Assembly (NCBI GenBank): GCA_038087875.1
Contig: CM075993.1
Location: 6,946,001 to 7,010,000, forward strand
Origin: Malacoraja senta
Taxonomy: Eukaryota
DNA length: 64,000 bases
Reading direction: 5' to 3'
The position numbers and the translations under genes were made by a program. How positions within the stretch are numbered: the stretch's first letter is position 1; each line of letters begins with the position of its first letter. Shown here in pieces: positions 6,048 to 55,279 of the stretch. Under the pieces are notes generated by a model that had not been told where the DNA came from, did no database searches, and saw only the letters and a program-made list of their open reading frames with translations.

Positions 6048-6190
6048 CTCTTCTTCTTCTTGCGTATGGCGTGCACAGCCTAAAGTTGTAGGACAACTTG
6101 TTCTATTTGATCTTACTTGATTGTGCACGCCAGGTTGATTGCATTCGTCGAAACAGGGCGGACCACGTGAAGGTTGCAATCTCCCACCTC
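6048..6190 (-). mobile_element. ~140-bp retroposon with 5' HDV-like ribozyme and (AAG)n tail, copy A
   Basis: Near-identical to copies at 15368, 17860 and 41446. TSD ATTAAATTA(T/C)AT at 6036-6047 and 6191-6202. Confidence 0.85.
6138..6190 (-). ncRNA. Minimal HDV-like ribozyme, copy A (one P1 mismatch)
   Basis: GAGGTGG-GAG-ATTGCA-ACC-TTCACGT-GGT-CCGCCCT-GTTTCGA-CGAA-TGCAAT; putative catalytic C at 6147. Confidence 0.65.
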
Positions 6191-14942: not shown

Positions 14943-15367
14943 TCTACCAGCACCCCTATCAGCATGTGACAGGTACCTACCACACTCTATGTAGAAATAC
15001 ATGCCCTGTGCATCTCTTTTAAACCTATCCCCTCTCATCTTAAAGCTATGACCTTCAGTATTTGACATTTCCATCCTGGGGAAAAAAGCTTTAACTGTCT
15101 ACCCTATCTATTCCTCGCATCATTTTGCAAACTTCCATTAGATCTTCTTTCAGCCTCTGATGTTCCAGAGAAAACTATTTAACTTTGTCCAACTTCTCCT
15201 TATAGCCAACAAATCTAATCCAGATAGCATGCTGGTAAACCTCTTCTGCACCCTCCCCAACACCTCCATATCCTTCTTGTAATACAGAGACCAGACCTAC
15301 GCACAACACTCCAACTGTTGTCACTCCACTGGATCCTCGACTTCCTGACCAACAGACCCCAATCAGT

Positions 15368-15420
15368 GGGGTGGACGATTGCGACCTTCACGTGGTCCGC
15401 CCTGTTTCGACAAATGCAAT
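15368..15420 (+). ncRNA. Minimal HDV-like ribozyme, copy B
   Basis: P1 GGGGTGG/CCGCCCT, P2 ATTGCG/TGCAAT, P3 ACC/GGT, L3 TTCACGT, J4/2 CAAA (C at 15411). Confidence 0.75.
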
Positions 15421-15506
15421 CAACCCGGCGTGCACAATCAAATAAGATCAAATAGAACAAGTTGTCCTACAACTTTAGGCTGTGCACGCCATACGCAAGA
15501 AGAAGA
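15368..15506 (+). mobile_element. ~140-bp retroposon with 5' HDV-like ribozyme and (AAG)n tail, copy B
   Basis: TSD AGACCCCAATCAGT at 15354-15367 and 15507-15520; cleanly interrupts a LINE RT sequence. Confidence 0.9.
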
Positions 15507-17058
15507 AGACCCCAATCAGTGAGTATCGGGGACAAATCATCCTCCACGATAATCCTCAACATGGGGCTCCACAAGGATGCGCTCAGCCCCCATCTTCACT
15601 CCTTGCACACCCAAGACTGCGCAGCTATGTACAAATCTAATTCAATTTCCAAATTCGCTGACGACACCACCATTGGAGGACGGATGTCAAATAATGAGGA
15701 GACGGAGTACAGGAAGGAGATTGAGTAACTCGTGTCTTAACGTCAGCCAGACAAAGGAGATAGTGATCGACTTCAGAAAGCAAAGTGGTTCACATACCCC
15801 AGTTTGCATTGAAGGTGCCGAAGAAGAGATGGTCGAAAACCTCAAATTCCTAAGAGTCAATATCACCAACACCTTCTCCTGGACCACTCATGTTGAAGCA
15901 ACGACCAAGACGGCACACTTCCTCTACTTCCTTAGATGGCTTAGGAAGTTTGGCATATCCCCTAAAACTCTCACCAACTTCTACAGATGCACCGTAGAAA
16001 GAATTTCATCAGGATGCATCACAGCTTGGTTGGGAACAGCTCCATCCAGGACCGCAAGAAATTGCAGCGAATTGTGGACGTAGCCCCAGCCATTACACAA
16101 ACCAACCTCCCTTTCATCGACTCCATTTATACCTCATGCTGCCTCGGCAAGGCCAGCAGCATAATCATGGACGAGTCGCATAATCCTGGCTACTCCCTCT
16201 TCTCCCTCTACCATCAGGAAAAAGGTATAGAAGTGTGAAAACGCACACCACCAGATTAGGGACAGTTTCTTCCCAGCTGTTATCAGGCAACTGAATCATC
16301 CTACCACAACCAGAGAGCAGTGCTGAACTACTATCTCTTTAATAACCCTCAGACTATCCTTGATCAGACTTTGCTGGCTACACCTTGAACTAAACGTTAT
16401 TCCCTTATCATGTATCTATACACTGTAACTGGATAGATTGTAATCATGTTACAGTGGTGCAGCGGTAGAGTTGGTAGAGGGTCGCTGGTTGGTGCAGACT
16501 CGGTGGGCCAAAGGGCCTGTTTCCACGCTGTATCTCTAAACTAAAATGCATTGTCTTTCTGCTGACTGGTTAGTATGCAACAAAAGCTTTTCACTGTACC
16601 TCGGTACATGTTTATCTTTATCTACTGTGTTACCACTTTCAGAGAGTTAAGGGCTTGGACTTCAAGATCTCTCTGTATATAAATGCTGTTCACAGTCATG
16701 CCATCAATTGTATACTTTCCTCTTACATTTGACCTCTCAAAGTGCAACACCTCAAATTTACCTAGATTATACTCCATCTGCTACTTCTCCGCCCATATCT
16801 GCAACTATCTTTTGACAGCCTTTTTCGTTGAATTTTAGGGGAAAGTACTAAACTGGTGTAGGGTAAATTACAACATTATTAAACATGAGCTACGGAGAGT
16901 TAATTTGAAACAGCTGTTATGGGATAAGTCCACATCTTACATATGTGAATCATTTAAAGGCAAGCAGATCAAAGTTCAAGACCGGCATGTTCCAATAAAG
17001 GAGAAGGAATGTTTGCTTTGTTTGCAAACTCACTAACGAACTCATCTACATTTTAATC

Positions 17059-17184: not shown

Positions 17185-17859
17185 TACATTTTAATCCTAG
17201 TCATTTATGTATATCACAAACAACAGATATCCCAGCAGAGATCCCTGCAGAACACCAGTGGTCACGGATCTCCAGCCAGAATATCATCCTTCCACGACTA
17301 CCATCTATGGTTAAAGCAGTTCAGAATCCAACCCATCATTATCCAAGGTTCCATTACCTTGCTATCCTTGTCCCTGGTCCTTACTGGAACTACCGGTCCC
17401 GAAATCAAATTAGCTTATTTAAACGATTCACACGTCTGATGTGGACTTACCCAATAACAGTTGCTGTAAATTAACTCTCTCTAGCAGCTGCCTAATAATG
17501 TTGCAATTTACTCAACCTCATGTTAGTACTATCCCCAAGGTCCAGACTTATTCATAATTATCTTACAACTTTGAGGTATTGTGATTACTGTCCCCAAAAC
17601 GTTCTCCCACTGAAATGCCGGTCACATGGCCAAGCTCTTTCCATAAGACCATATAATTTCCCAATAAAGTATGACCCCTCCTCTGGTTGGACTATTCACA
17701 TACTATTTCAAGAAGCCCTCTTGGATATACCTAACAAATTCTGCCCTGTCTAAGCCACTTGCACTCAGCAAGTCCTATTCAATATTAGGAAAGTTAAAGT
17801 CACCGAATACGACAACTCTGTTGCTTTTACATTTGTTTCATAATCTGAGCACATATCTT

Positions 17860-17912
17860 GGGGTGGGAGGTTGCAACCTTCACGTGGTCCGCCCTGTTTC
17901 GACTAATGCAAT
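17860..17912 (+). ncRNA. Minimal HDV-like ribozyme, copy C
   Basis: P1 GGGGTGG/CCGCCCT, P2 GTTGCA/TGCAAT, P3 ACC/GGT, J4/2 CTAA (C at 17903). Confidence 0.75.
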
Positions 17913-17996
17913 CAACTCGACGTGCACAAACAGAAGATCAAATAGAACAAGTTGTCCTACAACTTTAGGCTGTGCACGCCACACGACAGAAGAAGA
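17860..17996 (+). mobile_element. ~140-bp retroposon with 5' HDV-like ribozyme and (AAG)n tail, copy C (diverged variant)
   Basis: TSD AGCACATATCT at 17848-17858 and 17997-18007. Confidence 0.88.
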
Positions 17997-18310
17997 AGCA
18001 CATATCTGTTCCTCTATCTGGCTATTGGGAGGCCTATAGTATAATCCCATCAGAGTGATTGCATCCATCTTATTTTTAAGCTCTGCCCATATTGCCTTAG
18101 TGGATGATCCTGCCAGTAAAGCTGTGACATGCTCCTTGATTGAGAATGTAACTCCTCCACCTCTTAACCTCCCTCTCTATCACACCTGAAACGCAAAACC
18201 CAGGAACATTGAGCCTCCACTCCTGCTCCTCTCATAACCAAGTCGCTGTGAAACTCGTAACATGTTCGATATAAATCTGGGTGTGTGTTTAAACATTCGT
18301 GATGAAAGAT

Positions 18311-22129: not shown

Positions 22130-22475
22130 TTCATCATCATCATTGAAAACATCAACGGACACGGTGCCTCACAATGCTATGTACGATGTGATCGCAACTT
22201 CTACTGAAGTGTGGATGGCAGCTGGCTCGCTAGGAGGGTGTGCACAATCAAATAAGATCAAATAGAACAAGTTGTCCAACAACTTTAGGCTGTGCACGCC
22301 ATACGCAAGAAGAAGAAGAAGGCTCGCTAGGAGCTCATCCGCCCTTTGACAGGTCTTGTTTTTGGTCCTGCTGAGGGTCCACAGCCCCCTCCTCACCTGG
22401 CAAACCAGGTGGGGGAGACGGTTTAGTCGTCGACTATCCGACCAAGGAGCAGGTAGCACGTGATTATCCCCCCCG
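22130..22475 (-). mobile_element. RTE-related short element with (TGA)n tail, interrupted by copy D
   Basis: (CAT)n on plus at 22130-22143 and a GC-rich structured body; family assignment tentative. Confidence 0.4.
22237..22320 (+). mobile_element. 5'-truncated copy D of the ribozyme retroposon (ribozyme absent)
   Basis: Hairpin domain plus (AAG)n only; TSD GGCTCGCTAGGAG at 22224-22236 and 22321-22333. Confidence 0.88.
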
Positions 22476-41314: not shown

Positions 41315-41446
41315 CTTCTTGCGTATGGCGTGCACAGGAAAGTTGTCGGACAACTTGTCTATTTGATCTTATTTGATTGTGCACTCCAGGTTGATTGCAT
41401 TCGTCGAAACAGGGCGGACCACGTGAAGGTTGCAATCTCCTACCCC
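41315..41446 (-). mobile_element. ~140-bp retroposon with 5' HDV-like ribozyme and (AAG)n tail, copy E
   Basis: TSD GCTGACCTTCTT at 41303-41314 and 41447-41458 (overlaps the tail); small deletions in the hairpin domain. Confidence 0.85.
41394..41446 (-). ncRNA. Minimal HDV-like ribozyme, copy E (one P1 mismatch)
   Basis: GGGGTAG-GAG-ATTGCA-ACC-TTCACGT-GGT-CCGCCCT-GTTTCGA-CGAA-TGCAAT; C at 41403. Confidence 0.65.
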
Positions 41447-49611: not shown

Positions 49612-52600
49612 CTATGTTTGTAATAATTCTATAAATGCAGACCACGTCAGGTGGAAGTGATCTGGTTTACCTGCTAGGAGGAGTCTTATCTCTTCAAGGT
49701 GTAGTGTTTCAAACATATTTGAAATCCACATATTTATAGTTGGTATTGGAGCCTTCTTCCAAAATTTTAGAATTAGCTTTTTTCCAGTTATTAACCCATA
49801 ATCCATTAATTTCTTTTGAAACACATTTAGTTCTGGATCATCTTCCGTTATTCCGAAGATAATCCATTCTGCTTTGGGTATCAGTCTTGTTTTAAATAAC
49901 TTTGTAAAGATTTCAAAAATTTCATTCCAAAATTTTTGAATTTTTGTACAGAAGACAAATGAGTGCGCTATAGTTGCTTCTTGGGATTGACATTTATCAC
50001 AAATAGATGATACGTTTGGGAAAATTTTATGAATTTTAGTTTTCGAATAATATAATCTATGTAAAATTTTAAATTGTATTAAAGTGTGTCTTACATTAAT
50101 CGAGCATTTATGTACTTTTAATAAGTATTCATTCCAACTTTCCTTTGAAATTTTAATAGCTAACTCTTGTTCCCAGTCTCTTCTGATACCCTCCGTAGAT
50201 GGTATTTGTACATTTAAGATAATATTGTACAAATATGATATTAAGTTTGTTGATTCCGCTTTTGTCTGCATTGCCTCGTCCAGTACATCTGCTGGGTTAT
50301 TATGATGATCTTTTATATATTTTTTCAAATAGTCGCATATTTGAAAGTATTTAAAATATTGATTATTTCCGAGTTTATATTTTATTTGTAATTGTTGAAA
50401 TGAAAGTAATTTTCCAGTTTCATACAAGTCACCAAGCGTTTTAATTCCTAGTCTATCCCATTGTGTATAAGCTTTATCTATAATAGAAGGACTAAACGAA
50501 GGGTTATTGACTATAGGTAATAAAAGTGATAAGTTTCTTAATTTTAAATTTTGTTTTATTTGTTTCCAAATACGGATTGTACTATGAATAATTGGGTTCT
50601 TATTATAGTTTATGTTATTCAATTTCATTGGAGAGAGGAGGATCGCTCCAATGTTTCTAGAGGAGCAATCCTCTTTCTCCATTACAATCCAGTCTACTTG
50701 CTGGGCGGAGTTATTCATCAGTTGAATCATGTTTTTAATATTTACTGACCAATAATAATACATAAAATTGGGTAGTGCTAGACCCCCCAATACTTTAGAT
50801 TTATTCAGATGGGTTTTTTGTATTCTATGTGATTTATAGTCCCATATAAAATTAGTGATATCTGAGTCGAGTTTTTTAAAAAACTTCTTAGGTAAGTATA
50901 TAGGAATTGATTGAAATAGGTATAAAATTTGTGGTAAAAAGATCATTTTTATTGCGTTTATTCGGCCTATTAAAGACATCGGAAGCGTTTTCCAGAATTT
51001 AATTAATGTATTCAGTTTATTAAGTAGGGGGTCAAAATTTGCCCTGAGCATACCTTGATATGCTCTGGTAATTTCGATTCCCAAATATTTAAATTTTTCT
51101 GTAGCTATTTTAAAAGGGAATTTTAAAAGATGTGTTGAATCTTTCGGTTTTATTGACATAATTTCACTTTTATTCCAATTTATTCTATATCCAGAAAAAG
51201 ATCCGAAGTCTTCAATTAAATGTAATATATTTGGTATAGTGATTTGAGGTTTTGTAATATACAATAATATATCATCCGCGTATAAAGATATTTTATTATA
51301 TGAGTCTTTAGTATTATATCCATGAATATCAGGGTGTATTCTAATTTTTTCTGCTAGCGGTTCAATAATGAGAGCAAACAGCTGTGGTGATAATGAGCAT
51401 CGTTGTCTATTTCCCCTTGATAGTTGAAATTTCGAGGATAATATGTTATTAGTAAGTATTCTAGCTGTAGGTTTGTTATATAGTAACTTAATCCATAAAA
51501 TAAAATTCTCTCCCAGTTGAAATTTTTGTAATACTTTATCCATATAATTCCATTCTACTTGATCAAATGCTTTTTCAGCATCCAGCGAAATAATTGATAA
51601 TTCTTGATCTTCAGATTTGTGTGAGTGCATTATGTTGAGTAGACGTCTCATATTATTAGAAGAGTATCTCTTAGGGATAAACCCTGTCTGATCTGGATTT
51701 ATTAATTTACTAATGTATTTACTTAATCTTCTGGCTAATGTTTTCGCTAATATTTTTTGATCTGTGTTTAACAATGCTATAGCTCTATATGAGCCAGGTT
51801 CTTCTAAATCCTTATTTTTCTTAGGTATTAATGTAATCGTTGATTCCGCTAATGTATCAGGTAGTATTCGTTTTTTAAAAGCGTATTGGTACATTTATTG
51901 TAATCTTGGTATTATTTTATCATAAAAGTTTTTATAAAATTCATTAGTAAATCCATCAGGGCCTGGTGTTTTTCCATTTTTTAGTGAGTTTATTGTATCT
52001 TCTAATTCCTTAATTGAGATTTGTGCACCCAGTTCCTCTTGTTCCTTCAGCTCTAACTTTGGAAGATTACAGGTATCCAAGAACTTTGTGATATTATTGG
52101 AATCAATTATCGTTTTAGATGTATACAAATTCTCGTAAAATTGCGCAAATCTTTTATTAATATCCTTCGGTGTTGTTAATAATTCCCCTTTATCTGATTT
52201 GATCTTTGGTATAGTATGTTCCTTTTCTCGTTTTTTTAGCTGGCGAGCCAAAAGTTTATGCGGTTTATCCCCAAATTCAAAGTGCTCTTGTTTTGTAATT
52301 TGAAAAAGTCTTATAAGTTTGGCAGATAATAATTTATTTAATTTAAATTTTAAAATTATTATTTTATTATGTTTATCTATTGTTGGATCTTTAGCATTAT
52401 CTATATCCATTTGTCTAATAAGTTCTTCTAACTGTCTTTGTTCATTCTTATTCTTTTTATTTTGAAAAGCTTGATATGAAATTATAATACCCCTAATGTA
52501 TGCTTTAAAAGATTCCCAAAGTAAAGTAGGCGATATATCTGAAGTATCATTTGTTTGAAAAAAGACCTCCATTTGTTCTTTTAAATATATACTCGCTTGT

Positions 52601-53403
52601 GGATCTTTTAAAATTTGAGAGTTAAATCTCCAGAATGAATTATTCTTAGACAATCCTTCCAGTTTTAAAAAGAAAGTTAGTGGAGAATGGTCTGAAATTG
52701 AATTTGTATGATATATTGCATTAGATGTTTGGGGGATTAATTTTGTATCCAGCAGAAAGTAGTCTATACGTGAGTATGTCTTATGTACCATTGAGTAAAA
52801 CGAATATTCCCTGCCAGTTGGATTCACAATTCTCCAAACATCTGCTATATTAGTGTTGTTTATGTAGGTATTGAGGAGTTCCCCAGTTTTCGATTTCATA
52901 TTCCCTCTCTGTTTTTGACTTGATTTATCTAAGTACGGGTCTAAAACACAATTAAAGTCTCCGCCTATTATAACATTTTGATAGTTTGACTCTGCAATTA
53001 TATTGAAGATTTTATTGAAAAAGTGGGGGTTATCAAAGTTAGGGGCATATATATTTACCAAAGTAAGTGGAGTGTCATGGATTTCTCCATTAACTATTAG
53101 GTATCTCCCTTCTATATCTGTTATAATATTCTTTGCTTTAAATGGTATACCTTTTCTTATGATAATTGACGTGCCTCTAGATTTTGAAGTGAATGAAGAG
53201 TGGTATGTTTGACCTATCCATTTCGCCCTCAGCCTAACTTGGTCCTGAGGTTTTAGGTGTGTTTCTTGTAGGAAGGTAATGTCAGAATTATACATTTTTA
53301 GCTGAGCTAATATCTTACCCCTTTTGATAGGTTCATTAATACCTCTTATATTCCAACTACAAAATGAGACTCCTCCTAGGTTCTTTTGTGTGGTGTCATG
53401 CAT
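49612..53403 (-). pseudogene. L1 ORF2 (APE endonuclease, RT, CCHC) with a single in-frame TAA at 51895-51897
   Basis: SWNIRG, QETH, GDFN, SDH; LDAEKAFD, LYADD; CDKC..H..C. The 502-aa and 760-aa ORFs are in frame and abut (CAA TAA ATG). Confidence 0.95.
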
Positions 53404-54208
53404 TTTGAATAATTATAGTACCTTTGAATCTTGTGGTGCGTCCATATCCCAGGTCTTTAGGTATTGGGGGAGTTTTTGAATTATTAACTTTTGTTGGTAT
53501 GTCCATATTATTCTTATCACTAAACACAAAACACAAACAAGTGATTTTATGTAATAAAAAAAAAACTAAAAAAGTGAGGCTACAGTGTCTATAGTCGGCA
53601 CTGTAGCAAGTGACCCACCTGTAGGTGGGAAAAAACCTTATTTTGACTTCCATTGCGTTGTTGCTCAACTCGCTCCGCTCTCTTAGTTAATCATAACATA
53701 TTAAAATATTAAAACGAGGCCTCACATTCATATATATAATACAATTTTACCCTGATATTTCCTTATAACATATATATATATCAGAGTTTAATTATTAAAC
53801 CAATATTTTTGATTTCAATAAGAATCAGCTGTTGGTTGAAGGGGTTAACGAGACGTGCTCCTGGACATAAGCCAGGAGCTCGTTTCTCATCCCCTCCTCC
53901 CGCTTATAGACAAGGTTACAATTTATTAAAAATTCATATTAGTATGTTAGTTCATTATTTTTTTGTTTTTTTTGTTAGTATTCTAATCTAACCTGCATAA
54001 CTTTTAAAGTTGTTAATAGGATAAGTTCTTACAATTGGTTATAACATTTTAATCAATAAGCAATTATTTTCTAATTCATATCCCGTTATAAAGTTGTTTA
54101 CACGTTTTGAACAGAAAATGTCCTTGCTTCAACATTCCGGAGATAACAGTGTAACTATCCCCAGACAAAACATAGCTGAGAATTATTCGGATCTGCCAAA
54201 GCTCCCTT

Positions 54209-55279
54209 TTATTTCTGTCTTTCAACAATCGTTTGGGCATATTTGAAAGCGTCTTCAGGCTTAACAAATGACTTTTCAAGACCATTAAAAGAAATACGCA
54301 TTTTAGCGGGATAAAAAACCCCGAATCTGACCCCTTCTCTCCCTCTTAAAAGATCTTTAACCTTATCAAATTTGTTTCTTTTTTGCACAATTTCATGTGG
54401 GTAGTCCCTGAATATCTTAATAGTGTCTTTGTCCAGCCGTAATTGTACACCATATTTGATATGGGTCATAACATATTCCAGTTCTGCAGTGTCTCGAAAT
54501 TTCACTATAATATGTCGTGGATAAGCTTTTCCCGCATCAAATCTTTTTCCAAATCTTGGGACACGATGAGCCACTTCGATTTTCGGTTCCTTGGGAAGAT
54601 TCAACAGTTGTTTCAACAAGCCCATGGCAAATTCACGTACCTGTTCCCCTTCTGCCCCCTCTGAAACACCAAGAATCCTCAGATTCTGGCGTCTAGAACG
54701 AGCTTCCAGGTCCAGGCATTTGAATGAGACTTTCTCTAATTGAGTCCCCATTTGTAGTGATGCTTGTTCGTTTTCTCGCCTCATTTGCTCATGTTCTTGC
54801 CTCAATTTCGCCATGTCTTCAACCAGTCGTGCCGTATTTTTCTCCAATTCCGTGATTGTCTGCATACTTGCAGCTACTGTTTCAAGTACAGCCGTGAACT
54901 TATCCGTAGTAATTACATCCATCTTATCCATTTTCTCTGATAGTCCATCTTTCACCTCATCAATTCGTTTATTCATAGTGTCCAGTAAATCCGTCATATT
55001 CTTCTGGTTACCAGCATTTAAATCCTTCATCATCTTCTGCATTCCTTCCATCATTTTTGCCGAATTTTCCTTCATTTCCTTCTTATCTTCCACCCTATTA
55101 TCCGAGATCTCATCTTTCAAATTTTTCATTGATTTTTTCAAGTCATCAAAGTCTTTCTTAGATCTTGTATCCATTTCTGCAGCCACTTCAGAGACTTCAG
55201 AGGTAACTTCAGTTTCGAACTGTTTCGACAGTTTATTCACAGCTCTCTGAGGGCTCACAGCTGGAGTCAATTTACTCAT
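54209..55279 (-). CDS. L1 ORF1p (coiled coil, RRM, CTD), 356 aa, intact
   Basis: Heptad-rich N-terminus, DLEARSRRQNLRILGV, AHR, PRHIIVKF, YPAKMRI. Confidence 0.93.
   Translation of the reverse strand: MSKLTPAVSPQRAVNKLSKQFETEVTSEVSEVAAEMDTRSKKDFDDLKKSMKNLKDEISDNRVEDKKEMKENSAKMMEGMQKMMKDLNAGNQKNMTDLLDTMNKRIDEVKDGLSEKMDKMDVITTDKFTAVLETVAASMQTITELEKNTARLVEDMAKLRQEHEQMRRENEQASLQMGTQLEKVSFKCLDLEARSRRQNLRILGVSEGAEGEQVREFAMGLLKQLLNLPKEPKIEVAHRVPRFGKRFDAGKAYPRHIIVKFRDTAELEYVMTHIKYGVQLRLDKDTIKIFRDYPHEIVQKRNKFDKVKDLLRGREGVRFGVFYPAKMRISFNGLEKSFVKPEDAFKYAQTIVERQK

What the first reader, a model, noticed from the sequence alone, without database searches (positions are those of the whole stretch)
15368..15506. 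Tiny retroposon family whose 5' end is a minimal HDV-like self-cleaving ribozyme
Seen: five dispersed copies (6048-6190 -, 15368-15506 +, 17860-17996 +, 22237-22320 +, 41315-41446 -), each with its own 11-14 bp TSD and an (AAG)n tail, and no tRNA A/B boxes. Four share the same 5' start. Their first 53 nt parse into the HDV nested double pseudoknot: P1 GGGGTGG/CCGCCCT (7 bp, G1-U wobble), J1/2 3 nt, P2 ATTGCA/TGCAAT, P3 ACC/GGT, 7-nt L3 TTCACGT (U first, G sixth, like U20/G25), a one-pair P1.1 (C in L3 with the G after P1), P4 shrunk to T-TTCG-A, and J4/2 C-N-A-A. Established: HDV-like ribozymes cleave immediately 5' of G1 and define the 5' ends of R2, RTE and L1Tc/ingi retroelements. Inference: this is a promoter-independent SINE-like element that cuts itself out of host transcripts and is copied by a partner LINE. 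I cannot tell whether it has been described in chondrichthyans.
Basis: partly seen in the sequence, partly recalled or inferred. Interest (0 to 1): 0.95.

Follow-up and report, generated by a model that had tools for sequence, protein, structure and literature searches.

The report
Tiny retroposon led by HDV-like ribozyme
A 140-base genomic parasite in a cartilaginous fish starts with a stripped-down self-cutting RNA fold inherited from its parent LINE, and fuller versions of that fold in the same genome closely resemble the CPEB3 ribozyme, so far reported only from mammals.

Summary

- **The family.** It is a ~137-nt retroposon with TSDs and (AAG)n tails. Genome-wide there are 2,064 exact ribozyme cores and 5,201 exact 3' modules. 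In an unbiased sample, 33 of 40 copies start within 3 nt of G1.
- **Origin.** It is an internally deleted derivative of a ~3.3-kb single-ORF (endonuclease + RT) LINE. It keeps the LINE's first ~79 nt and last ~40 nt.
- **The fold.** The first 54 nt fit an HDV-like double pseudoknot with P4 reduced to 6 nt.
- **Specificity.** My own descriptor hit 61 sites, all in this family, and 0 in nine control sets.
- **Covariation.** Six other retroelement families in the genome carry the same fold with different helix sequences. 94% of cells pair against 37–48% in slid controls, and 10 of 18 pairs change on both sides.
- **Unexpected.** The full-P4 relatives and a second P4-minimal mini-retroposon match Rfam's mammalian CPEB3 ribozyme model. 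At least 39 genomic places score above its cut-off.
- **Not obtained.** Rfam does not detect the element itself, and no raw RNA reads were available.

I class it as a new variant of a known kind; NARTc and the R2 SIDEs are the precedents.

The parts
15368..15509 (+). Copy B, full length, flanked by the duplication ccccaatcagtg (15357-15368 and 15510-15521; one base is ambiguous with G1). It sits in sense orientation inside an L2/CR1-like RT sequence.
15368..15421 (+). Ribozyme-like module of copy B: GGGGTGG AC GATTGCG ACC TTCACGT GGT CCGCCCT G TTTCGA CAAA TGCAATC. Putative catalytic C at 15411.
   Evidence: descriptor parse, row winB
17860..17998 (+). Copy C, full length, flanked by the duplication gcacatatct.
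   Evidence: (100% self hit; other copies 97-99% identical)
17860..17866 (+). P1 5' strand of copy C (GGGGTGG); G1 is the predicted cleavage-site nucleotide.
17869..17875 (+). P2 5' strand of copy C (GGTTGCA).
17876..17888 (+). P3 (ACC/GGT) enclosing the 7-nt L3 TTCACGT. The third L3 base, C at 17881, pairs with G 17896 to form the one-pair P1.1.
   Evidence: the P1.1 pair is C-G in 25 of 25 distinct rows
17889..17896 (+). P1 3' strand (CCGCCCT) followed by the P1.1 G.
17897..17902 (+). TTTCGA, a 6-nt stand-in for P4. Related families have 16-30 nt here.
17903..17913 (+). J4/2 (CTAA, with the putative catalytic C at 17903) and the P2 3' strand (TGCAATC).
   Evidence: (C kept in 82 of 84 unique copies)
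17952..17998 (+). 3' module shared with the partner LINE's 3' end. In the LINE it contains the ORF's TAG stop codon. Followed by the (AAG)n tail.
6048..6190 (-). Copy A, full length (starts GAGGTGG), flanked by the duplication at[g/a]taatttaat.
   Evidence: (row winA)
22237..22320 (+). Copy D, 5'-truncated at about element position 62, flanked by the duplication ggctcgctaggag.
41315..41446 (-). Copy E, full length (starts GGGGTAGG), more diverged in the 3' module.
   Evidence: (row winE)

Best explanation
The element is a non-autonomous, internally deleted derivative of a ~3.3-kb single-ORF LINE (AP endonuclease + reverse transcriptase, (AAG)n tail, RTE/Rex3-like layout). It keeps the LINE's first ~79 nt and last ~40 nt. 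The first 54 nt fold into an HDV-like nested double pseudoknot of the CPEB3 type, with P4 reduced to six nucleotides. When a copy is transcribed as part of any longer host or transposon transcript, this fold cuts the RNA immediately 5' of G1, so every new RNA has the same 5' end without a promoter of its own. The shared 3' module and (AAG)n tail are then recognised by the LINE's protein, which copies the RNA into a new site by target-primed reverse transcription and creates the 9-13 bp duplications. Shown here: the retroposon anatomy, the LINE parentage, the fixed 5' end, the fit to the fold, and conservation of the fold through compensatory change. Inferred: catalysis, co-transcription with host RNA, and use of the LINE's protein.
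For: Anatomy: the five window copies. 29 of 29 further copies listed start at GG[G/C]GTGG with the duplication abutting. Genome-wide there are 2,064 exact 25-nt cores and 5,201 exact 22-nt 3' modules, with 0 in the reversed-pattern controls. Among 40 places chosen only by the 3' module, 33 are full length, 4 are 5'-truncated and 3 are LINE-type. Parentage: the LINE shares the last 37-43 nt and positions 1-79. Its ORF has Exo_endo_phos_2 and RVT_1 domains. Where LINE copies reach the terminus (L112, L115, L104, L117, L119), the upstream flanks are unrelated to each other. Fold: a strict descriptor of my own found 61 start sites in 683,578 bases, all in this family, and 0 in one reversed and eight shuffled sets of the same size. 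Conservation: six other families carry the same architecture at their 5' boundaries with different P1, P2 and P3 sequences. On alignment A1, 94.2% of cells pair against 37.5-48.4% when the partners are slid. 10 of 18 pairs change on both sides against 1-4 slid. The covariation score is 0.502 against 0.043-0.111 slid, and 0 of 500 shuffles reach it. The L3 C, the G after P1 and the J4/2 C-N-A-A stay fixed. Curated model: the relatives with full P4, and a second P4-minimal family, pass Rfam RF00622. Constraint in source lineages: in 35 unbiased copies, shared non-CpG variants occupy 2 of 52 module positions (8 in J1/2 and 45, the N of CNAA) against 11 of 46 positions downstream (Fisher p = 0.0056). 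The G/A change at position 32 keeps the pair with T5. Contigs of three coded organisms list variants at 5% or more at module positions 32, 42 and 45 only. Precedent from passages read: NARTc cleaves at +1 in vitro and the active L1Tc ribozyme has a single-pair P1.1 (PMC3185411). HDV-like ribozymes lacking P4 exist and are active (PMC10879173). RTE and baggins elements use such ribozymes and lack their own promoters (PMC6765202).
Against: No cleavage assay exists and no raw RNA reads were available. All 24 listed runs are kept as contigs, 23 of them are not on record as RNA, and no begin/end pile-up could be read. Rfam finds nothing in the window at gathering scores, nothing at E<=10 on copy B, and nothing on two LINE 5' ends of this family. 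Nested MFE folding is no better than shuffles (z = +0.12 and -1.24 for the modules of copies C and B), although that program cannot model pseudoknots. P4 is nearly absent and P1.1 is a single pair, so activity could be weak. The descriptor was written after seeing the element, and a relaxed version gave one spurious hit in a low-complexity tract (L103 ~2525). Two of the five whole-structure measures did not beat shuffles (218/500 and 158/500), and the 26 rows represent only about seven lineages. No LINE copy with an intact ORF was found: the longest open frames were 449 aa among the 150 matches and 681 aa with an internal TGA. So current activity of the partner is not shown. A fixed 5' end could also come from an internal promoter that starts at +1.
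Confidence: 0.8

Rival explanations
1. The fold is a real inherited HDV-like ribozyme scaffold, but the P4-minimal version in this family no longer cleaves. In that case the fixed 5' end is set by an internal promoter in the same ~80 nt that starts transcription at G1.
For: P4 is reduced to 6 nt and P1.1 to one pair. Rfam does not detect the family. There are no RNA-end data. In trypanosomes the same 77 nt act as a promoter as well as a ribozyme (PMC3383444 abstract; PMC3185411 passages).
Against: Two separate P4-minimal mini-retroposon families keep every other core feature. Shared variants avoid the paired and core positions, which a promoter alone would not predict in this pattern. The position-32 change keeps the pair. 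The LINE 5' UTR contains T4 runs that rule out Pol III for the LINE. P4-less HDV-like ribozymes are active in vitro (PMC10879173 passages).
Confidence: 0.12
2. Dual use: the module is both a self-cleaving ribozyme and an internal promoter or translation/protein-binding element, as proposed for Pr77/L1TcRz and for R2.
For: In the LINE the module is almost the whole 5' UTR, with the ATG about 165 nt from G1 in L103 including a 48-nt insert. Precedents are described in PMC3383444 (abstract) and PMC6765202 (passages on an IRES-like role and R2 protein binding).
Against: Nothing here tests promoter, IRES or protein binding. The short element has no ORF, so a translation role cannot explain why it keeps the module.
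Confidence: 0.2
3. The HDV-like parse is a chance resemblance in a G+C-rich 5' end.
For: The descriptor was post hoc, and thermodynamic z-scores are unremarkable.
Against: There were 0 hits in about 6.15 million control bases and 0 non-family hits in 683,578 real bases. Compensatory changes appear across seven families. Sister families match a curated ribozyme model at up to 64 bits.
Confidence: 0.01

Closest known systems
NARTc / L1Tc (Pr77-L1TcRz) of Trypanosoma cruzi
   Same: [quoted passage not shown] That stretch is an HDV-like ribozyme cutting at +1, with a single-pair P1.1 (PMC3185411 passages; PMC3383444 abstract).
   Different: That host is a protist with polycistronic transcription and an ingi-clade LINE, the ribozyme retains P4, and the stretch doubles as a proven promoter. 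Here the host is a vertebrate, the LINE is RTE/Rex3-like in layout, P4 is reduced to 6 nt, and no promoter test exists.
R2 SIDEs (short internally deleted elements) of Drosophila
   Same: They are internally deleted LINE derivatives that keep the 5' ribozyme and the 3' protein-binding end (PMC3414825 abstract).
   Different: They are site-specific in 28S rDNA and co-transcribed by Pol I. The element here is dispersed, has variable target duplications, and numbers in the thousands.
HDV-like ribozymes of RTE and baggins LINEs (Ruminski et al. 2011, as summarised in PMC6765202 and PMC3774820; the original paper was not held)
   Same: The ribozyme sits at the exact 5' junction of promoter-less LINEs that are transcribed within host RNAs.
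   Different: Those examples are from insects and other invertebrates and concern the autonomous element. Whether the LINE here belongs to the RTE clade was not established (one search returned no clade names).
Mammalian CPEB3 ribozyme (Rfam RF00622)
   Same: Same fold, identical L3 (UUCACGU), the same CCCUGU after P1 and, in one subfamily, the same CGAA. Sister families in this genome pass the curated model at 36-64 bits, and L151 matches it in 54 of 67 positions by my count, including 13 of 14 P4-arm bases.
   Different: The element itself does not reach any score, because P4 is missing and P2 and P3 differ. The context is LINE and mini-retroposon 5' termini in a cartilaginous fish rather than one conserved site in a mammalian intron.
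Minimal HDV-like (drz-Mtgn, theta) ribozymes
   Same: They lack the P4 domain and are about 50-60 nt long (PMC10879173 passages).
   Different: Those are reported as almost (~99%) confined to Caudoviricetes phages, often next to tRNAs. This one heads an animal retroposon and derives from P4-bearing LINE ribozymes in the same genome.
Schistosome Sm-alpha SINE-like elements
   Same: They are short retroposons that carry a self-cleaving ribozyme (PMC6765202 passages).
   Different: Their ribozyme is a hammerhead, they are Pol III transcribed, and they act on multimeric transcripts.

Membership tests
HDV-like (delta-like) self-cleaving ribozymes | Nested double pseudoknot with strands in the order P1-P2-P3-L3-P3'-P1'-P1.1-(P4)-J4/2-P2' | tested here: met
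   Descriptor parse of window copies A, B, C and E and of the LINE ends. Specific against controls. 94.2% of cells paired and 10 of 18 pairs compensatory across seven families.
HDV-like (delta-like) self-cleaving ribozymes | Conserved core nucleotides: G1 opposite U at the base of P1, C in L3 pairing with the G after P1, C-N-A-A in J4/2 with the catalytic C | tested here: met
   G1/T36, C22-G37 and C44-N-A46-A47 are present. C44 is kept in 82 of 84 unique copies. P1.1 is C-G in 25 of 25 distinct rows. That these are the defining core positions is partly my recollection of the field and partly from PMC3185411 and PMC10879173 passages.
HDV-like (delta-like) self-cleaving ribozymes | Site-specific self-cleavage 5' of G1, giving 5'-OH and 2',3'-cyclic phosphate | not testable with these tools
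   Only contigs of public runs were available. The fixed genomic 5' end (33 of 40) is indirect evidence.
HDV-like (delta-like) self-cleaving ribozymes | Match to a curated Rfam model of the class | tested here: not met
   No hit for the window at gathering scores, none at E<=10 on copy B, and none on L112 or L115. Sister families do match RF00622.
CPEB3 ribozyme family (RF00622) | Score at or above the gathering cut-off of 35 bits | tested here: not met
   Not met by the element or its LINE. Met by 4 of 4 family-3 loci, by 8 of 8 further loci including the second minimal family, and by 39 of 59 scored genomic candidates.
CPEB3 ribozyme family (RF00622) | Single conserved copy in an intron of the mammalian CPEB3 gene | tested here: not met
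   Here there are many copies at retroelement 5' boundaries. The host's closest named TE homologues are from cartilaginous fishes.
Minimal (P4-less) HDV-like ribozymes | P4 domain absent, rest of the fold intact | tested here: met
   6 nt (TTTCGA) lie between the P1.1 G and J4/2, against 16-30 nt in related families.
Minimal (P4-less) HDV-like ribozymes | Phage context, often adjacent to tRNA genes (theta subgroup) | tested here: not met
   The context is a eukaryotic retroposon, and there is no tRNA in the window.
SINE in the strict sense | 5' head derived from a Pol III small RNA (tRNA, 7SL or 5S) with an internal promoter | tested here: not met
   The head is the LINE's own 5' end. ARAGORN finds nothing.
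SINE in the strict sense | 3' end shared with a partner LINE, target-site duplications, dispersed copies | tested here: met
Internally deleted LINE derivatives (SIDE / NARTc type) | Both termini shared with the autonomous element, coding region missing | tested here: met
   Positions 1-79 align to LINE 5' ends and positions 93-131 to LINE 3' ends. The LINE ORF pieces are in L101-L103.
RTE-clade LINE (partner element) | ~3.3 kb, single ORF with AP endonuclease and RT, minimal UTRs, short tandem-repeat tail | tested here: inconclusive
   The layout fits: pieces L103, L102 and L101 add up to about 3.3-3.4 kb, the stop codon lies ~18 nt before (AAG)n, and the domains are present. Compare the Rex3 description in PMC6274825 passages. 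The ORF ends in a C-x-C...H-x4-C motif, no phylogeny was made, and homologues carry no clade names.

The most novel reading that the evidence does not exclude
The mammalian CPEB3 ribozyme is not a mammalian invention. On this reading it is a domesticated 5' end of a LINE from the lineage seen here, which was already present in early jawed vertebrates. The tiny retroposon carries a P4-stripped descendant of the same ribozyme. Evidence: LINE and mini-retroposon 5' termini in a cartilaginous fish match the curated CPEB3 model at 36-64 bits in at least 39 places. One family (L148, L151) also shares the P4 arms, which vary freely among the other families. This argues for common descent rather than convergence on the active site.
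Probability: 0.4. Interest if true: 0.88.

Novelty: new variant of a known kind. Interest (0 to 1): 0.74.

Why it matters
1. It gives a vertebrate example of a mobile element that needs no promoter of its own. A 54-nt RNA fold would let it cut itself out of any host transcript. That would explain how a 137-nt sequence reached thousands of near-identical copies while its parent LINE decayed.

2. It places a P4-less HDV-like ribozyme in an animal retroelement. The literature I read reports that form almost only from gut phages. The full-length ancestors sit in the same genome, so the loss of P4 can be studied as a natural deletion series.

3. It supplies outgroups for the CPEB3 ribozyme. Papers from 2010 and 2021 say it has not been found outside mammals (PMC2950038, PMC8233481 passages). 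This makes the origin of that memory-linked ribozyme testable.

Tried and rejected
- **Rfam on the element.** Nothing at gathering scores on the window, nothing at E<=10 on copy B, and nothing on LINE ends L112 and L115.
- **Nested MFE folding.** P1 forms, but the z-scores are not significant (+0.12, +0.66, -1.54, -1.24). I do not use them as evidence either way.
- **Looking for a LINE behind the exact ribozyme.** A negated pattern gave 109 hits, almost all indel variants of the short element. The LINE was found through the 3' module instead.
- **Intact partner LINE.** None was found among the scored copies. Because these searches score only the best candidates, absence is not shown.
- **Public runs.** All 24 listed are Logan contigs, and only one is on record as RNA. 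Laying four of them gave no begin/end table and cannot show expression, strand or ends. Run X10 laid only 2 contigs.
- **Clade placement by named homologues.** No clade names came back.
- **Ruminski 2011 (PMC3308841).** Not held, so its content is cited only through reviews.
- **Relaxed descriptor.** Allowing one P1 mismatch and a longer linker gave one spurious low-complexity hit, so only the strict version is used for specificity.
- **Family 2 in alignment A1.** MAFFT misaligned its 3' end. I left it in, and it counts against the structure.
- **Earlier notes of this scan.** Nothing relevant.
- **Supplementary files.** None were consulted. Supplements of the ribozyme surveys could list fish examples that I could not see.

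Full report
**1. Observation**

The five copies are in the window as described. A 27-nt stretch of the 5' module occurs four times without mismatch, and a 22-nt stretch of the 3' module occurs four times. Each has 0.00 expected from shuffles. Four copies begin at the same base, and the fifth (22237-22320) is 5'-truncated. All end in (AAG)n and are flanked by direct duplications of about 9-13 bp. In copy B the duplication is 12 nt and exact, with a one-base ambiguity against G1. ARAGORN finds no tRNA-like gene in the window.

**2. Scale and 5' end**

The window lies in a 1.94-Gb eukaryotic assembly. The closest named homologues of a transposon RT in the window are from skates, rays and chimaera at 72-89% identity, followed by turtles and birds at about 50-60%. 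So the host is a cartilaginous fish.

A search with copy C found 42 matches among 40 scored of 1,897 candidates, mostly 97-99% identical. In the 30 loci returned, 29 copies were listed and all 29 start at GG[G/C]GTGG with the target duplication abutting. Exact-pattern counts over the whole genome are 2,064 for a 25-nt core of the module and 5,201 for a 22-nt piece of the 3' module, with 0 for the reversed patterns.

To avoid bias I took the first 40 places of the 3'-module list:

| Class | Places (of 40) |
|---|---|
| Full length, starting within 3 nt of G1 | 33 |
| 5'-truncated (element positions 6, 20, 87, 96) | 4 |
| Different sequence upstream (LINE-type) | 3 |

No copy carries extra conserved sequence upstream of G1.

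**3. Partner LINE**

The three odd places led to a LINE whose last 37-43 nt equal the element's 3' module. In the LINE that stretch includes the ORF's TAG stop codon, about 18 nt before the (AAG)n tail. Walking upstream through 5'-truncated copies reached a 5' end in L103. That end reads as follows: a G-run, a 48-nt insert peculiar to that copy, the rest of the module, about 25 further bases shared with the short element, and then an ATG opening directly into an AP-endonuclease domain. Pfam gives Exo_endo_phos_2 and RVT_1.

Across L103 and the twenty other 5' regions fetched, 18 of 21 hold the module. Five reach positions 1-3, and their upstream flanks are unrelated to each other.

The pieces add up to about 3.3-3.4 kb with a single ORF, resembling the RTE/Rex3 layout described in PMC6274825 (passages). 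The clade was not established, because homologues carry no clade names. The short element is therefore LINE positions 1-79, plus about 13 nt of unclear origin, plus the LINE's last ~40 nt. That makes it an internally deleted LINE rather than a SINE in the strict sense. No LINE copy with an intact ORF was seen among the scored matches.

**4. The fold**

The first 54 nt read:

GGGGTGG / GA / GATTGCA / ACC / TTCACGT / GGT / CC[G or A]CCCT / G / TTTCGA / C-N-A-A / TGCAATC

These segments are P1, J1/2, P2, P3, L3, P3', P1', the P1.1 G, a 6-nt stand-in for P4, J4/2 and P2'.

I wrote a strict descriptor requiring:
- a 7-bp P1 starting at G;
- P2 of 5-7 bp;
- P3 of 3 bp;
- the L3 C and the G after P1;
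- C-N-A-A before P2'.

It found 61 start sites in the 683,578 bases I held (both strands), and every one lies in this family. It found none in a reversed set or in eight block-shuffled sets of the same size. The descriptor was written after seeing the element. A relaxed version produced one spurious low-complexity hit.

**5. Comparative support**

The endonuclease domain found related LINE families at 41-42% and 31-32% identity with long open frames. Their 5' boundaries parse into the same architecture with different helices and a full P4. Example copies:

- **L126:** GGGGGAC TAT GGATCA GCG TTCTCGT CGC GCCCCCC G [26 nt] CCAA TGATCC
- **L153:** GGGGATC AA GGTAGAA GCG TTCACGT CGC GATCCCT G [25 nt] CGAA TTCTACC
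- **L130:** one extra G on the P1 5' strand matched by one extra C on the 3' strand.

Four further forms came from the Rfam hits. On one alignment of 26 sequences from seven families, the double pseudoknot gives:

| Measure | Proposed structure | Partners slid | Shuffles reaching it |
|---|---|---|---|
| Cells forming standard pairs | 94.2% | 37.5-48.4% | 0 of 500 |
| Pairs (of 18) with changes on both sides | 10 | 1-4 | 218 of 500 |
| Covariation score | 0.502 | 0.043-0.111 | 0 of 500 |

The count of further pair types was also reached by 158 of 500 shuffles, so two of the five whole-structure measures did not exceed the shuffles. The rows come from only about seven lineages, and the structure was derived from these sequences. 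Two misaligned family-2 rows count against it.

**6. Constraint within the family**

Among 84 unique copies, the only frequent variants in the module are at position 8 (J1/2), position 45 (the N of C-N-A-A) and position 32. At position 32 the LINE has A and most short copies have G, and both pair with T5.

In the 35 copies sampled without regard to the module, non-CpG variants shared by three or more copies occupy 2 of 52 module positions against 11 of 46 downstream positions (Fisher p = 0.0056). Private substitutions differ much less, at 0.0115 against 0.0174 per site per copy.

Contigs from runs labelled with three coded organisms carry the element in 1,055, 753 and 157 contigs. At 5% or more they list variants in the module only at positions 32, 42 and 45.

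**7. Link to the CPEB3 ribozyme**

Rfam does not see the element. It does match its relatives to RF00622, the mammalian CPEB3 ribozyme (gathering score 35 bits):

| Loci tested | Scores (bits) |
|---|---|
| 4 of 4 family-3 loci | 45.0-64.2 |
| 2 of 2 family-2 loci (below cut-off) | 16.8-19.9 |
| 8 of 8 further loci | 36.3-59.7 |

Genome-wide, 39 of 59 scored candidates are above the cut-off and none of the 14 control genomes has a hit. In L151 I count 54 of 67 model positions identical, including 13 of 14 P4-arm bases, although P4 differs freely among the other families.

A second P4-minimal form passes the model with 16 P4 positions simply deleted. An example copy is L146:

GGGGTC AA GGAAAGA GCG TTCACGT CGC GGCCCC T G TTTCCA CCAA TCTTTCC

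It heads another mini-retroposon of about 175 nt with 11-12-bp duplications and an (AAG)n tail. That family is rare, with 12 exact 33-mers genome-wide.

**8. What is not shown**

There is no cleavage assay. There are no RNA ends: all listed runs are contigs, only one is on record as RNA, and no begin/end table was produced. Nested MFE folding is unremarkable. An internal promoter starting at G1 cannot be excluded, and it could coexist with the ribozyme, as in L1Tc.

**9. Comparison with the known, and novelty**

The principle is in print. HDV-like ribozymes define the 5' ends of R2, R4, L1Tc and RTE elements (PMC3774820 and PMC6765202 passages). NARTc, which shares L1Tc's first 77 nt, cleaves at +1 in vitro, and that ribozyme has a single-pair P1.1 (PMC3185411 passages). 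R2 SIDEs keep the R2 ribozyme (PMC3414825 abstract). The 2019 review states that some non-autonomous SINEs use hammerhead or HDV-like ribozymes.

Three things appear to be new:
- The host group. A search for 'HDV-like' with 'shark' found 2 papers, neither on this by its title.
- The P4-minimal form in an animal retroelement. Minimal forms are reported as about 99% confined to phages (PMC10879173 passages).
- The CPEB3-type identity of the lineage. [quoted passage not shown]

My searches for CPEB3 ribozyme together with retrotransposon, origin, non-mammalian or LINE found no such report. I could not check Repbase, Dfam, Rfam's full hit lists, subscription journals or supplements. Eickbush 2013 warns that core similarity can be convergent (PMC3774820 passage). 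The P4 similarity of L148 and L151 argues against convergence alone.

**10. Verdict**

I class it as a new variant of a known kind, with a side result on CPEB3 that deserves its own follow-up.

Noticed in passing
G000 loci L135, L137-L141, L153 (family 3); L148, L151; L149, L150; L152: LINE-type 5' termini in this cartilaginous-fish genome match Rfam's mammalian CPEB3 ribozyme model at 45-64 bits. At least 39 genomic places are above the cut-off. L148 and L151 even share the P4 arms with the model consensus.
   Followed up: partly
L143-L147, L154 with L155-L159: A second tiny retroposon (~175 nt) starts at GGGGTC, ends in GACTCGATAAG(AAG)n and has 11-12 bp duplications. Its 5' end is another P4-minimal ribozyme (TTTCCA in place of P4) and passes the CPEB3 model. 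P1 is only 6 bp and the U after it is unpaired. There are only 12 exact 33-mers genome-wide.
   Followed up: partly
L108-L112, L116-L119, L123; L102:4068-4143: Many 5' ends of the partner LINE abut an inverted piece of the same LINE's 3' ORF, as in twin-priming inversions. In L112 the junction lies exactly at G1.
   Followed up: no
L131:185-330, L132:195-290: Family-3 5' ends sometimes carry 3-6 tandem copies of a 26-nt unit (GATCAAGGTAGAAGCGTTCACGTCGC) that spans P1 to P3'. Both P1 strands contain the palindrome GATC, which could promote slippage or template switching.
   Followed up: no
L103:2935-2982: One LINE copy has a 48-nt insert resembling a tRNA-like SINE fragment exactly in J1/2, between the P1 5' strand and P2.
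   Followed up: no
window 17921-17977; L103:3036-3045 versus the LINE 3' end: The LINE's 5' UTR (CGTGCACA) and 3' end (TGTGCACG) are complementary over 8 nt around the palindrome GTGCAC. In the short element the deletion brings them together into a stem that encloses a 7-bp hairpin (MFE z = -1.54, not significant).
   Followed up: partly
window 1-64000: The window holds five copies in 64 kb, four of them with the exact 3' 22-mer. The genome average is about one exact 22-mer per 370 kb (5,201 in 1.94 Gb), so this is a local excess of roughly twentyfold.
   Followed up: no
window 49612-55279 (-): An L1-like element has a 356-aa ORF1 and a ~1,265-aa ORF2 that is interrupted by a single in-frame stop at about 51895.
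   Followed up: no
window 17832-17999: One contig of coded run X1 (depth 4.35) joins 17832 to 17999 with 16 other letters between, skipping copy C. This is an empty-site-like form that would fit a recent or polymorphic insertion. It is a single low-depth contig.
   Followed up: no
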